From NCBI RefSeq assembly GCF_026571515.1, contig NW_026851541.1, positions 1 through 64,000 on the forward strand: a stretch of DNA of 64,000 nt. The letters are read 5' to 3'. Shown piece after piece: positions 51,001-54,000 of the stretch. The number at the start of each line of letters is the position of its first letter. Position 1 is the first letter of the stretch. Source of the DNA: Ruditapes philippinarum (taxonomy: Eukaryota). The position numbers were made by a program.

Positions 51001-54000
51001 GCATTAAGCAGACGTTGTTAGCAGATAGCTTATGCATTAAGTTGTTCATGATACATAGATTGTTCAGTAGTCTGGTTGTAATTCATTCATTGTTATGTGA
51101 AATATGATATAAATTATCAGATAAACAACTCACTTCTCTTTGATGTTATTTTGTTTGCACTGATAATACCAGGTTTTTATGTCTAAACATTTGCAGTAGG
51201 AACTGGAAAGGCCTGCAGGTCATAGGTTTGAGCTGCAACAGTTGCTTCGTAAACAGCTTGAAGCCACCAAATGCTGTTGTATATGAATACTTTGCCACTT
51301 GAATCTACTATATGATACATTAACCTTTTCCTTGCTTTGTTTGTCTTATGGACTTGGAATTTATAATTGTTTATTTAATAATAATTTCCATTGATAATTG
51401 ACACAGAGATTTCAATATTGATAAGCAAAATAATGACTGCATGGCTTCACAAGCTGGTAAGGCTGTATAAGTGGCATTTCATTAGTGACATAGACCAGCA
51501 AGTTTTTTCCTCTAATATTCAGAGGGTTAAGTTGATGCTCCTGCGAGTCCCTAGTTTTATTCTGCCTTTAACACAATGCTATTACTGTTTTATTTTGCTA
51601 GATTTTCATTCGATATTTCATTATATAAATCAAGGCAAATGAAGTGACAATGTAAGGGATAGACAGTCATGTGAATTTTCTGTGTAATAATTATTGAAAA
51701 CATTTTTTGTTATTTTAAGATAAGTGGTCAGGTGTTCGTTAATTGTTTGAGCCAAACAAATAGAGAAAAATCACATCTATTATGTAAGTCTAAAAGAAAC
51801 TTGTTGACATGGTTATTTTGGTAACCCTTGAACTGCAGGACTTCACAAAAGATTATGTATTTTCAAATTGTTAAACATATGAGTTTGCTCTATGTCCTTG
51901 TTTGTTAGCTGTCCTTGTTAGGAAAAAGATGTTTTAAAAAGATTTTACTTGTAAAGATTGTGTAATAGATGACAATTACTTTACAGCAAGAGTCTACTTT
52001 CATTTATGACAGGTGTTAACATTTGTCATGGTTGACCCATTTGTATCGTAATATCACTTATTTGGTAAAACATGAATGCTAATTTATTACTCTTCTCATC
52101 TCACTCTTGAAAAAAACAATATAATTAATATTGTTGGTTTTTTTATTTGTTTGGGTCGTCAGACCAAACAAATAATGGTAGCGAAATTTCAGAGTCTAAT
52201 GTTGCTAATTGCAAATGCCGAAAGTAGTCCAATTTTTTGGAGCGGTTACTTCCCTTTTGTATGTACACTAAAGCCGAAAAATTCAGGGGAGATCACTGTG
52301 TAAAGATGGTCAAAGACAGGCGCATCAATTTTCAAGCAAAGTAATTCCCGAATGGTCAAAGATTTCTAATATTGTTTTATTGTATTTTCTGATCGAAAAT
52401 AACTAAATACAAAGCGGACATTCAATCTCTGACACAGAAGTTTACTACAAACCTAACAACAAGTAGTTCTCAAAACAGCTAAAAACTAGCGATTTAAAAG
52501 AAAGAAATATTTTATTTTGTTACAAGTATCCAACAAATTACAACGCATTTAAAGTTAAACAATAGCGTTGGCTTATAGAATTGTCAATAAATGCACAATC
52601 ACAAATTACGCGGATGAATATGATTTTATCAATGAAAATACTATTTTTAGCCATGTTGATTACCGAATACTACACAAACCGAGTAGTGGAATATATAGAT
52701 TCTACATGCCGGACCGTTTGGGCGAGAGGATTTTTGCTAAAATATCTACTTCAATTATAAACAACAGGTTTAGCCTAAACAAAATACCTCGAAATTAATA
52801 AGGATTACAAACCCGAACTGCAATGGAAGTTCCAAATTTAGAATGATTTGATATTATTCAGACACCCTGTGTATAACTTTTCCGTGGTACAAGGGTAACG
52901 CGCTCGCCTCGTGAGTGAGAGGTCTCGAGTTCGTATCCAAGTCGAGAAAAACTTTTTTTTTGTTAAATTCTTTTTTTTAAGTGTTTTTGTTAAGGAAGTA
53001 GCCATGATATACAAAGATAAAGTGTGGCTGTCGTAAAAAAAGGACATAAATGATTTTTTGATGCAACTCTAGTTATGCAGAATTACGGATGTATCAAACT
53101 CTGGTGCCTTACAAAAGGAATTATAATACATAAAAATAAACTTATACAGGAAAATGCATACAGATATACAGTACGATTGCAAAGATCAGAAAATACCACA
53201 GAACTTGCAGCCGTTTGATTCTTTATAAATATACATGCTTATAGTAAGCTCCAGGATTATTTACATCTGTGTTAAACAACAGTTAAAGTCGTTACAAGCC
53301 CTAATTTAGAATAATATGGTTTTCTTCAGGCCGTTCACATATAAATTCACCGTGGCTGAAAGGTTTTCGGGCTCGCTTAGGAAGCGAGAGGTCTGGAGTT
53401 CAAATCCCAGTAAAGGTTACTCATTTTTTTAAATTGTTAAAGTCAAATAAACATTGGATTGAATATCAGTGTTGCAATTAGTCTAATAGCCAATTTACTA
53501 CAATTAAAACGATGGAAAGCATTGGTGGCACTAAACATATAATCTCACAACCTGCACCTTTCTTACATTCTGAGACCCAAACAAATTCAGCGCCTTCTGT
53601 GCTTTGATTACTGAGTGTATTTATTGGCGTCCGCGCCGAAGCGCGGCGCTCTTATGGAATGAAATCAGATTTTGTGAAAGGGCGACAGCAACTTCTCGAG
53701 CCTTTTAGTCGGTCATAATAAAAGCCGAAAATTCCGATCGGTATGAGGGTGCTTGATTATTAATAATTAAGAATGAAATGTCGCGATATGTTACAATGAA
53801 TTTTCGCAATGCAAACATTTTCAAATGAAATAAATAACCTTTTCCGTCAATAAATCGCGCTCTTCGGGGTTTTTTTATTTAACATTTTGTAGTATACAGT
53901 CGGTTATCATGGTATGTTATTGTTGTACATGTATCCTAGAATGATCAGTTGATGACCTAAATATTCCAAAAACCTATTTATAGATATATCTATTTATCAC

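What the first reader, a model, noticed from the sequence alone, without database searches (positions are those of the whole stretch)
52143..53609. Helentron-type DNA element carrying two tRNA-like Pol III transcription units
Seen: the element has Helentron-style ends (5' hairpin, inverse 3' subterminal repeat, terminal stem-loop). Inside, instead of a satellite array, it holds two same-strand tRNA-like cassettes ~470 bp apart (52878-52950 and 53346-53418). Each has an A box, B box, a paired 5-bp anticodon stem CTCGC/G(T/C)GAG with a 7-nt loop, the same bulged-A T arm, and an immediate oligo-T terminator. The loops differ (CGT vs AGG) while the stems are kept. Neither is followed by a SINE body, tail or TSD, so they do not look like ordinary SINE insertions. 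Known: module 2 closely resembles tRNA-Pro, and B boxes bind TFIIIC. Inference: a rolling-circle transposon family that spreads small Pol III genes or TFIIIC sites (tRNA-mimic ncRNA, insulator, or anti-silencing cargo).
Basis: partly seen in the sequence, partly recalled or inferred. Interest (0 to 1): 0.72.

Follow-up and report, generated by a model that had tools for sequence, protein, structure and literature searches.

The report
Small transposon carrying two tRNA-like relics
A 1.5-kb stretch has the end structures of a known kind of non-coding rolling-circle transposon and holds two old, diverged copies of a tRNA-derived segment that no longer look like working tRNA genes; the cargo is unusual, but nothing here shows that it has a function.

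Summary
The sequence features are real. A perfect 12-bp hairpin at 52143-52175, a perfect 13-nt inverted copy at 53574-53586 and a strong GC palindrome at 53627-49 give the layout published for non-autonomous Helentrons (HINEs).

The two "cassettes" are tRNA-derived but degenerate. ARAGORN finds none, Rfam finds nothing at gathering score, and the tRNA model gives 17.1 and 11.5 bits (threshold 29). In the cloverleaf register 33 of 41 cells pair, with no compensatory change.

They are paralogous copies of one 141-145-bp unit (about 70% identical). The unit includes 46 bp upstream of the tRNA-like part and the T-run after it. That argues against SINE heads and against two separate tRNA genes.

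Two same-strand tRNA-like direct repeats a few hundred bp apart also match the published bivalve "Helenus" miniature LTR retrotransposon. No PBS, PPT, TG..CA ends or clear TSD were found.

No other copy lies in the window and no eukaryotic genome collection was available. The central claim, a transposon family that spreads Pol III units, is therefore untested.

Verdict: a HINE-type copy with old tRNA-derived passenger DNA. Interest is modest.

The parts
52138..52144 (+). T7 run directly upstream of the 5' hairpin: T-rich boundary or target
   Evidence: Read. HINEs insert in TT or T-rich sites and carry a few terminal Ts (PMC4067079 passages; PMC7492417 section 9).
52143..52175 (+). 5' hairpin: 5' subTIR (52145-52157) plus complementary IR (52164-52175), 9-nt loop in the 12-bp reading
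   Evidence: I18: 12 of 12; I11.: -10.5 kcal/mol, z -5.2; one of two such hairpins in 64 kb.
52832..52972 (+). Unit 1 (141 bp): 46-bp leader, tRNA-like part 52878-52950 (anticodon position CGT), T9 at 52953-52961, short tail
   Evidence: Paralogy: (nhmmer E 2.5e-11). tRNA model 11.5 bits, E 6.5, model positions 1-71. ARAGORN none.
53300..53444 (+). Unit 2 (145 bp): 46-bp leader, tRNA-like part 53346-53418 (anticodon position AGG), T7 at 53424-53430, short tail
   Evidence: tRNA model 17.1 bits, E 3.2, model positions 9-63 only, no acceptor stem.
52973..53299 (+). 327-bp spacer between the units, with no homology to the rest of the element
   Evidence: Smith-Waterman against the other non-unit segments: 122 of 200 and 192 of 200 shuffles score as high. 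No hidden periodicity. No tandem repeat.
53574..53586 (+). 3' subTIR, perfect inverted copy of 52145-52157
   Evidence: I11: 13 of 13..
53589..53603 (+).
   Evidence: -2.1 kcal/mol, z -1.3, 21 of 200 shuffles as good.
53627..53649 (+). GC-rich palindrome (9 bp with one bulge, 4-nt loop), the likely 3' palindrome of the element; the 3' terminus is unresolved, somewhere between 53650 and about 53673
   Evidence: -12.6 kcal/mol, z -3.0, 1 of 200; one of three GC-rich perfect hairpins in the window.
51738..51764 (+). Second, shorter copy of the 5' hairpin motif (7-bp stem, 3-nt loop), 404 bp upstream: possible remnant of another 5' end
   Evidence: the motif occurs 2 times against 0.06 expected; 13-mer with 1 mismatch.: -5.2 kcal/mol, 1 of 200.

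Best explanation
This is one copy of a non-autonomous Helentron-type rolling-circle element (a HINE). It runs from about 52143 to just past the palindrome at 53627-53649, about 1.5 kb. It has no microsatellite and no satellite array.

By analogy with the family, its 5' subTIR/IR hairpin and its 3' subTIR plus palindrome are the cis signals that a Rep/helicase/endonuclease protein encoded elsewhere would recognise (inferred, not shown). It sits in a T-rich site without a target duplication.

Its interior carries two old paralogous copies of one 141-145-bp unit. Each unit is a 46-bp leader, a tRNA-derived segment and its own T-run. They descend from a single tRNA-gene-like ancestor copied at DNA level, or from the two terminal repeats of a Helenus-type miniature LTR retrotransposon. 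They have decayed: they are not working tRNA genes.

Because the units are about 30% diverged while the element's pairing motifs are perfect, they were most likely passenger DNA already present at the last transposition (inferred). Residual TFIIIC or Pol III binding, chiefly at unit 2, is possible but unshown.
For: End architecture:
-, set against the criteria.
- No TSD next to the subTIRs: left flank ...GGTTTTTTT, right flank TCAGCGCC....
- Non-coding: none of the 3 ORFs of 65 aa or more that overlap the element has a Pfam match.
- Oyster Helitron-like elements with subTIR and IR but without a microsatellite, mean length 1,092 bp, are in print (PMC7992393 passages).

tRNA ancestry:
- Both modules align to the Rfam tRNA model in the same register.
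- 33 of 41 cells pair in the cloverleaf register, against 36.8-47.5% when slid.

Decay:
- 0 genes by ARAGORN and 0 Rfam matches at gathering score.
- MFE folds are not cloverleaves, z -1.3 and -0.65.

Paralogy:
- 69.6% identity over 112 bp; nhmmer E 2e-11 over about 130 bp.
- The upstream 30-mer is 80% identical (D1).
- Both modules share the same extra A in the T stem.
- A T-run of 7 or more starting within 12 nt is expected at 1.1% of positions.
Against: - There is only one copy, so no family, empty site or autonomous partner was seen. The 3' terminus is undefined.
- Distances from the 3' subTIR and palindrome to any plausible terminus fall partly outside the ranges given for mite HINEs.
- The microsatellite and central tandem repeats typical of Cg_HINEs are absent.
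- The age argument fails if the two units were never identical, for example two insertions from diverged subfamilies.
- The host was not identified (one search gave no species), so use of the oyster literature rests on a resemblance of layout only.
Confidence: 0.55

Rival explanations
1. One reading: a Helentron/HINE family whose conserved cargo is a pair of working small Pol III units or TFIIIC-binding sites (tRNA-mimic RNA, insulator or anti-silencing function).
For: - tRNA-derived modules with A/B-box-like segments and T-runs directly after them.
- Unit 2 carries TGGCT, which fits the box A motif TRGCY quoted, and a T-loop region GTTCAAATCC.
- The anticodon and T arms are the best kept parts: 100% and 90% of cells paired.
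- The units are detectably homologous while their surroundings are not.
- The perfect ends set against diverged units suggest that the units travelled with the element.
Against: - Both modules are far below the tRNA gathering score: 17.1 and 11.5 bits against 29.
- Box B reads GAGTTC, not GGTTC, in both. Unit 1 reads TGGTA where unit 2 reads TGGCT (against the motifs).
- No compensatory change: 0 of 21 pairs.
- The non-tRNA leader is kept as well as, or better than, the tRNA-like body: 80% over 30 nt against about 70%. The sharp edges of homology are therefore more simply the edges of a duplicated unit than a footprint of selection.
- No second copy of the element or of the units lies in 64 kb.
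- There are no expression data.
Confidence: 0.12
2. The two units are the terminal repeats of a Helenus-type TRIM (a miniature LTR retrotransposon with a tRNA-like sequence in each LTR). The TRIM would span about 52832-53444 (613 bp), and was either inserted into this DNA or captured with it. The paired tRNA-like modules would then owe nothing to the Helentron-type ends.
For: From PMC10886601 (abstract and sections 10, 19 and 29 read):
- Helenus has a tRNA-like sequence in both LTRs and a total length of 311-1263 bp.
- 51 families are reported in pteriomorph bivalves, including oysters.
- Seven bivalve families are predicted as tRNA-Thr; unit 1 has CGT in the anticodon position.
- A related TRIM group, Cassandra, keeps Pol III terminators in its LTRs.

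Seen here: two same-strand direct repeats of 141-145 bp, 327 bp apart, each with leader, tRNA-like part, T-run and short tail.
Against: - There is no TGG within 55 nt after unit 1, so no recognisable PBS.
- There is no purine tract before unit 2.
- The units begin CC and do not end CA.
- A 4-nt flank match (AAGT) appears only with about 4 nt of slack, which is not significant.
- Extending the repeats to a putative ...CA end is not supported: 189 of 1000 shuffles score as high downstream and 955 of 1000 upstream.
- At insertion the LTRs would be identical. About 30% divergence inside an element with perfect ends argues against insertion after the element arrived here.
- Similarity to Helenus sequences could not be tested: supplements were closed and no repeat library was available.
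Confidence: 0.22
3. There is no transposon. A local duplication of a tRNA pseudogene lies in AT-rich DNA, and the inverted repeats and palindrome nearby are unrelated or due to chance.
For: - Only a single locus is available.
- AT-rich DNA gives many short repeats: 65 inverted pairs of 10 nt or more in 2 kb.
- The 5' hairpin motif alone recurs in prokaryotic genomes: 61 loci in 596 Gb.
Against: - Rare features fall in the published order and spacing: a 12-bp perfect hairpin, a 13 of 13 inverted copy 1.4 kb away, and one of three GC hairpins of the window 41 nt after it.
- A further copy of the hairpin motif lies 404 bp upstream: 2 occurrences against 0.06 expected.
Confidence: 0.08
4. The modules are heads of ordinary tRNA-derived SINE insertions.
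For: - tRNA-derived SINEs are common in bivalves (titles and abstracts in the search listing).
- B-box-like motifs are enriched in the window: 5 against 0.5 expected.
Against: - Homology between the two units starts 46 bp upstream of the tRNA-like part.
- A T-run follows at once, with no body or tail.
- The other B-box-like sites are unrelated to the units. The two that were searched (35951 and 38745, within 35800-38900) are not tRNA-like by Rfam.
Confidence: 0.03

Closest known systems
HINEs: non-autonomous Helentrons (DINE-1, mite HINE-Mo, oyster Cg_HINE)
   Same: - 13-nt subTIRs, with an IR complementary to the 5' subTIR a few nt downstream.
- A palindrome after the 3' subTIR.
- A T-rich 5' boundary, no TSD and no coding capacity.
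   Different: - No microsatellite and no central tandem array.
- The interior holds two dispersed tRNA-derived units instead.
- The distances from the 3' subTIR and palindrome to any plausible terminus are atypical.
- Family membership by shared ends is untested.
Oyster Helitron-like elements with subTIRs and a 5' IR but no microsatellite (PMC7992393, passages read)
   Same: - Length class: mean 1,092 bp, SD 558.
- subTIR plus IR, a microsatellite in only 1 element, a GC palindrome near the 3' end, non-autonomous.
   Different: - Those elements are described with a 5' TC and a 3' CTAG terminus and AT target sites. Neither motif is evident at this element's boundaries.
- The host of the window is unidentified.
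Helenus (TRIMp3): miniature LTR retrotransposons with tRNA-like LTRs (PMC10886601)
   Same: - Two same-strand direct repeats, each with a tRNA-like sequence that is unlikely to encode a working tRNA.
- An overall size of about 613 bp, and occurrence in bivalves.
- Thr in the anticodon position of one unit.
   Different: - No PBS, PPT, TG..CA termini or clear 4-bp TSD.
- The repeats are about 30% diverged.
- Sequence similarity is untestable here.
tRNA-derived SINEs
   Same: A tRNA-related segment with A/B-box-like motifs.
   Different: - The repeated unit has a 46-bp leader upstream of the tRNA-like part.
- It has no body or tail; a T-run terminator follows directly.
tRNA genes lying inside Helitrons in Arabidopsis (Cys tDNA cluster; PMC7544208, passages read)
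   Same: tRNA-type sequences located within rolling-circle transposons.
   Different: - Those are bona fide clustered tDNAs in plant Helitrons and are described as silenced by their surroundings.
- Here the sequences are degenerate, and the element is Helentron-type in an animal-like genome.

Membership tests
HINE (non-autonomous Helentron) | 5' subterminal inverted repeat of 11-15 nt a few nt from the 5' end | tested here: met
   52145-52157, directly after a T7 run. Criteria.
HINE (non-autonomous Helentron) | IR complementary to the 5' subTIR, 1-22 nt downstream (DINE-1 / Cg_HINE type) | tested here: met
   52164-52175: 12 of 12 paired, 9-nt loop (I18).
HINE (non-autonomous Helentron) | 3' subTIR that is the inverse of the 5' subTIR | tested here: met
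   53574-53586: 13 of 13 (I11).
HINE (non-autonomous Helentron) | Palindrome or stem-loop between the 3' subTIR and the 3' end | tested here: met
Strong palindrome 53627-53649.
HINE (non-autonomous Helentron) | Insertion in TT or a T-rich site without a target-site duplication | tested here: inconclusive
   The 5' side is a T7 run and no direct repeat flanks the subTIRs. The 3' terminus is undefined and no empty site is available. A 13-nt exact direct repeat at 52136-52148 / 53868-53880 (D8) is unexplained.
HINE (non-autonomous Helentron) | Microsatellite in the left module and central tandem repeats (frequent, not obligatory) | tested here: not met
   TRF reports no array between 39693 and 55433. 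No hidden periodicity.
HINE (non-autonomous Helentron) | Multiple copies sharing 11 or more identical subTIR nt and a 3' end at least 80% identical; a partner Helentron with Rep/helicase/endonuclease | not testable with these tools
   There is no eukaryotic genome collection. In the window only one extra hairpin-like copy was found. No Rep/helicase domain among the 41 of 64 ORFs scanned.
tRNA gene | Recognised by tRNA detectors at their thresholds | tested here: not met
   ARAGORN 0 genes. Rfam 0 matches at gathering score. 17.1 and 11.5 bits against 29. tRNAscan-SE was not available.
tRNA gene | Complete cloverleaf with an acceptor stem | tested here: not met
   In the acceptor helix 64% of cells pair, 1 of its 7 pairs is broken in both modules, and in unit 2 only 3 of 7 pairs are standard. 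D helix 71%. The MFE folds are not cloverleaves.
Pol III type-2 transcription unit | Box A, box B and a downstream T-run terminator | tested here: inconclusive
   T9 and T7 follow within 3-6 nt; such a run is expected at 1.1% of positions. Against the motifs quoted: TRGCY is met in unit 2 (TGGCT, 53353-53357) and not in unit 1 (TGGTA). GGTTC is not met in either (GAGTTC at 52927-52932 and 53396-53401). Transcription is not testable here.
Helenus (TRIMp3) | Two terminal direct repeats, each with a tRNA-like sequence; total length 311-1263 bp | tested here: met
   Units 52832-52972 and 53300-53444, span 613 bp. Criteria.
Helenus (TRIMp3) | PBS complementary to a tRNA 3' end just after the 5' repeat, and a PPT just before the 3' repeat | tested here: not met
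   The first TGG after unit 1 is at 53026. No purine run longer than 4 lies in the 25 nt before 53300. No bivalve tRNA set was at hand for a complementarity search.
Helenus (TRIMp3) | 4-bp TSD (animal Helenus) and TG..CA repeat termini | tested here: inconclusive
   The flanks AGTT and AAAT differ; AAGT matches only with slack. The units start CC. A ...CA end needs an extension that is not significant. About 30% divergence could have erased these features.
Helenus (TRIMp3) | Sequence similarity to catalogued Helenus families | not testable with these tools
   The sequences are in the supplements of PMC10886601 and in Repbase. Supplements were closed and no repeat library was available.
tRNA-derived SINE | tRNA-related head at the 5' end of the repeated unit, followed by a body and a tail, flanked by TSDs | tested here: not met
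   The homology starts 46 bp upstream of the head, and a T-run follows the head directly.

The most novel reading that the evidence does not exclude
A Helentron/HINE lineage has swapped the usual satellite array for a pair of tRNA-derived Pol III promoter/terminator modules and spreads them by rolling-circle transposition. It would be a DNA-transposon counterpart of the Pol III-bearing retroelements (SINEs, and TRIMp3 such as Helenus and Cassandra). The modules would act as TFIIIC/Pol III landing sites rather than as tRNAs.
Probability: 0.1. Interest if true: 0.65.

Novelty: new member of a known kind. Interest (0 to 1): 0.3.

Why it matters
If the host genome holds many copies with these ends and the units at fixed positions, this would be the first case that I could find in print of a rolling-circle element family carrying Pol III-type modules. 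They found only a tDNA cluster lying inside Arabidopsis Helitrons. Such a family could scatter TFIIIC sites, which are known boundary elements, through a genome.

As the evidence stands, the locus matters in two smaller ways. It is a worked example of how a HINE-type element can carry old retroelement-like or tRNA-derived DNA. It is also a warning that paired tRNA-like repeats in bivalve-like DNA have a published explanation (Helenus) that must be excluded first.

Tried and rejected
- Other copies in the window. blastn with word size 9 and nhmmer with single units and a two-sequence profile found only the two units.
- A cryptic 468-bp tandem repeat. Smith-Waterman with shuffles on the non-unit segments and an offset-match profile were both negative.
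- Longer LTR-like repeats ending in ...CA. The extensions are not significant.
- The other B-box-like sites of the window as relatives. They are unrelated, and no tRNA match appeared in 35800-38900.
- An autonomous partner or coding remnants. Pfam found nothing relevant in 41 of 64 ORFs of 65 aa or more; the 23 left out lie in tandem arrays.
- Host identification through a LINE-like ORF at 15388-15825 (-). The best hit is an unnamed protein at 88% identity, with no species information. This was not pursued.
- Related loci in public genomes. The open collection holds prokaryotes only. The unit core pattern gave 0 hits. The hairpin pattern gave 61 prokaryotic loci that share only the hairpin itself: 22 of 41 HSPs fall at 52100-52199, the best being 48 nt at 81%. 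This is uninformative.
- subTIR letters in the main text of PMC7492417: none are printed there.
- A cut-and-paste MITE reading of the 13-nt inverted repeats was rejected: there is no TSD, and there is an extra IR and a 3' palindrome.

Not checked:
- No eukaryotic genome, Repbase/Dfam or tRNAscan-SE was available.
- Supplements were closed. Those that may bear on the claims are Table S2 of PMC7492417 (subTIR and palindrome sequences) and Table S1, Figures S1-S2 and the sequences of PMC10886601.
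Full report
**Setting.**
- The window is AT-rich (GC 0.25-0.38 per 2 kb; 0.339 around the finding) and has no N.
- It is crowded with short tandem arrays (63 TRF rows) and has no long ORFs (9 of 110 aa or more).
- It looks like non-coding DNA of an invertebrate-type eukaryote.
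- Two arrays have a layout like that printed for oyster HINEs. A GTCT microsatellite leads into an 89-bp array at 10219-10951. A GTCC/GTCT-rich tract lies before a 168-bp array at 11654-12537 (compare).
- This is a resemblance of layout only. The host was not identified: a protein search with a LINE-like ORF gave only unnamed hits.

**The ends.**
- At 52143-52175 there is a perfect 12-bp hairpin with a 9-nt loop (I18). Its DNA fold is -10.5 kcal/mol with z -5.2, and 0 of 200 shuffles do as well. Only one other perfect hairpin with a stem of 11 bp or more exists in the 64 kb.
- Its 5' arm, 52145-52157, recurs as a perfect 13-nt inverted copy at 53574-53586 (I11).
- The 10-mer core occurs 4 times in the window against 0.53 expected, with 0 of 100 shuffles reaching 4. 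All four lie between 51752 and 53586.
- No direct repeat flanks the inverted repeats, and a T7 run precedes the 5' hairpin.
- Forty-one nt after the 3' copy lies a GC-rich palindrome, 53627-53649: -12.6 kcal/mol, with 1 of 200 shuffles as good. It is one of only three GC-rich perfect hairpins in the window.

**What the ends match.**
- The order is 5' subTIR, complementary IR a few nt on, 3' subTIR, then a palindrome, with a T-rich site and no TSD. This is what Thomas et al. (PMC4067079, passages) and Vojvoda Zeljko et al. (PMC7492417, sections 3, 7 and 9) give as the structure of non-autonomous Helentrons (HINEs).
- Peñaloza et al. (PMC7992393, passages) describe oyster Helitron-like elements of about 1.1 kb with subTIR and IR, almost none of which has a microsatellite.
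- I therefore accept the Helentron-type reading of the ends and move the likely 3' boundary to just past 53649.
- The exact terminus cannot be fixed from one copy. It could be 53650-53673, or, if the weak stem-loop is the real one, about 53606-53626.

**The two modules.**
- ARAGORN finds no tRNA in the window, and Rfam finds nothing at gathering scores.
- With permissive thresholds the tRNA model matches 53355-53410 at 17.1 bits (E 3.2, model positions 9-63, so without an acceptor stem). It matches 52878-52949 at 11.5 bits (E 6.5, positions 1-71). The gathering score is 29.
- These E-values count all 4227 families.
- Counting pairs in the cloverleaf register gives 33 of 41 cells paired (80.5%), against 36.8-47.5% when the 3' partners are slid by 1-3 columns. 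The anticodon helix is at 100% and the T helix at 90%, but the acceptor helix only at 64% and the D helix at 71%.
- No pair (0 of 21) shows a change on both sides.
- On their own the RNAs do not fold into cloverleaves. Their energies are unremarkable: z -1.3 and -0.65, with 24 and 51 of 200 shuffles as good.
- A T-run of 7 or more starting within 12 nt is expected at 1.1% of positions.
[quoted passage not shown] Both read GAGTTC in place of GGTTC.
- These are tRNA-derived sequences, not tRNA genes. Whether they still bind TFIIIC or Pol III cannot be said from sequence.

**The modules are two copies of one larger unit.**
- blastn aligns 52832-52942 with 53300-53411 at 69.6% over 112 bp.
- nhmmer extends this to about 130 bp at E 2e-11.
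- The alignment runs from 46 bp upstream of the tRNA-like part through the T-run and a short tail.
- The upstream 30-mer is 80% identical (D1), at least as good as the tRNA-like body. Both copies share the same extra A in the T stem.
- Outside 52832-52972 and 53300-53444 there is no detectable homology:
  - Other segments score no better than shuffles: 122, 119 and 192 of 200 shuffles do as well.
  - Upstream and downstream extensions are not significant: 955 and 189 of 1000.
  - There is no hidden periodicity. The match fraction at offset 468 with the units masked is 0.293; the mean over shuffles of the whole interior, not masked, is 0.277.
- No third copy lies in the window.
- A shared leader and a terminator directly after the tRNA-like part speak against SINE heads. 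SINE copies start at the transcription start and continue into a body.
- They also speak against two independently captured tRNA genes of different isotype. The different "anticodons" are simply 4 differences in a 7-nt loop of a pair that is 30% diverged.

**A published alternative for the pair.**
- Kojima (PMC10886601; abstract and sections 10, 19 and 29 read, plus passages) describes Helenus. These are miniature LTR retrotransposons of 311-1263 bp with a tRNA-like sequence in both LTRs.
- 51 families are reported in pteriomorph bivalves, including oysters. One oyster family has 1124 LTRs. Seven bivalve families are predicted as tRNA-Thr. The tRNA-like parts are judged unlikely to be functional tRNAs.
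- Two same-strand 141-145-bp repeats 327 bp apart (613 bp in all), each with a tRNA-like core, fit that picture. So does CGT (Thr) in unit 1.
- The other hallmarks were not found:
  - There is no TGG until 55 nt after unit 1.
  - There is no purine tract before unit 2.
  - The units do not begin TG or end CA.
  - The 4-nt flanks differ unless about 4 nt of slack is allowed (for the failed extension).
- Thirty per cent divergence could have erased these features, so the test is weak.
- Similarity to Helenus sequences could not be tested, because supplements and repeat libraries were not available.

**Relative age.**
- At 69.6% identity the two units are about 0.39 substitutions per site apart (Jukes-Cantor, my arithmetic), or about 0.19 per lineage.
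- Had this locus sat still for that long, the roughly 39 nucleotides that make up the 13 of 13 and 12 of 12 pairings would be expected to carry several changes. The chance of none is below 0.1%.
- So either the units were already old when the element last moved, that is, they were on board as cargo, or they were never identical. This is inference.
- It favours "passenger carried by the element" over "later insertion into this copy". It says nothing about function.

**What I conclude.**
- Most likely (0.55): a HINE-type copy without a satellite array, whose interior includes an old tRNA-derived duplicate pair as passenger DNA. The origin of the pair (Helenus-type repeats, or a DNA-level duplication of a tRNA pseudogene with its flanks) is unresolved.
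- A Helenus relic unrelated to the ends gets about 0.22.
- Chance architecture gets about 0.08, and SINE heads about 0.03.

**Limits.**
- Everything at family level is untested: other copies, fixed positions, excess conservation, empty sites, an autonomous partner.
- The only open genome collection holds prokaryotes. It gave 0 hits for the unit core and 61 loci that share only the hairpin.
- Supplementary tables that list HINE subTIRs and Helenus sequences could not be seen.
- The statement that Pol III modules as Helitron or Helentron cargo are not in print rests on three full-text searches. Their only near hit is a Cys tDNA cluster lying in Arabidopsis Helitrons.

Noticed in passing
window 51738-51764: A second, shorter copy of the 5' hairpin motif (TTGTTTG, 3-nt loop, CAAACAA, with matching flanks) lies 404 bp upstream of the element. 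The motif occurs 2 times in the window against 0.06 expected. It may be the remnant of another 5' end or of a tandem or partial copy. No homology follows it.
   Followed up: partly
window 52136-52148 and 53868-53880: A 13-nt exact direct repeat (GG, a T7 run, then ATTT) spans the 5' boundary and recurs about 220 bp beyond the 3' palindrome (D8). It is low-complexity and possibly chance. It is not explained by a Helentron model, which gives no TSD.
   Followed up: partly
window 53282-53290 and 53436-53444: A 9-nt exact direct repeat (GTTAAAGTC). One copy lies 10 nt before unit 2. The other forms the tail of unit 2 and is homologous to the tail of unit 1. It could be a trace of a lost neighbouring unit or a TSD-like coincidence.
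   Followed up: partly
window 10219-10951 and 11590-12537: A GTCT microsatellite leads into an 89-bp array (8.2 copies, 99% matches). After about 700 bp a GTCC/GTCT-rich tract leads into a 168-bp array (5.3 copies). This is the left-module layout printed for oyster Cg_HINE elements and a monomer length like the 166-167-bp oyster satellites. The ends were not searched for subTIRs.
   Followed up: partly
window 22572-22591 and 22871-22890; 22920-23275; 23526-23546: A 20-nt inverted repeat pair (19 of 20) brackets about 300 bp just upstream of a 47-bp tandem array. A GC-rich palindrome follows 250 bp after the array. Possibly a MITE next to another array-bearing element.
   Followed up: no
window 15385-15825 (-): A 146-aa ORF with a cysteine/histidine-rich C-terminal region; from recall it looks like the tail of a non-LTR retrotransposon protein. 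Pfam finds nothing. Its best database relative is 88% identical and unnamed.
   Followed up: partly
window 32627-32636 (-), 35951-35960 (+), 38745-38754 (+), 63042-63051 (-): B-box-like 10-mers are enriched in the window (5 against 0.5 expected, counting unit 2). These four sites are unrelated to the units. No tRNA match appeared in 35800-38900.
   Followed up: yes
window 19469-21509, 28371-30218, 36111-36936: Long arrays of short repeats: a 42-bp unit with about 52 copies, a 25/44-bp unit with about 59 copies, and a 39-bp unit with about 21 copies. They show how repeat-dense the region is.
   Followed up: no
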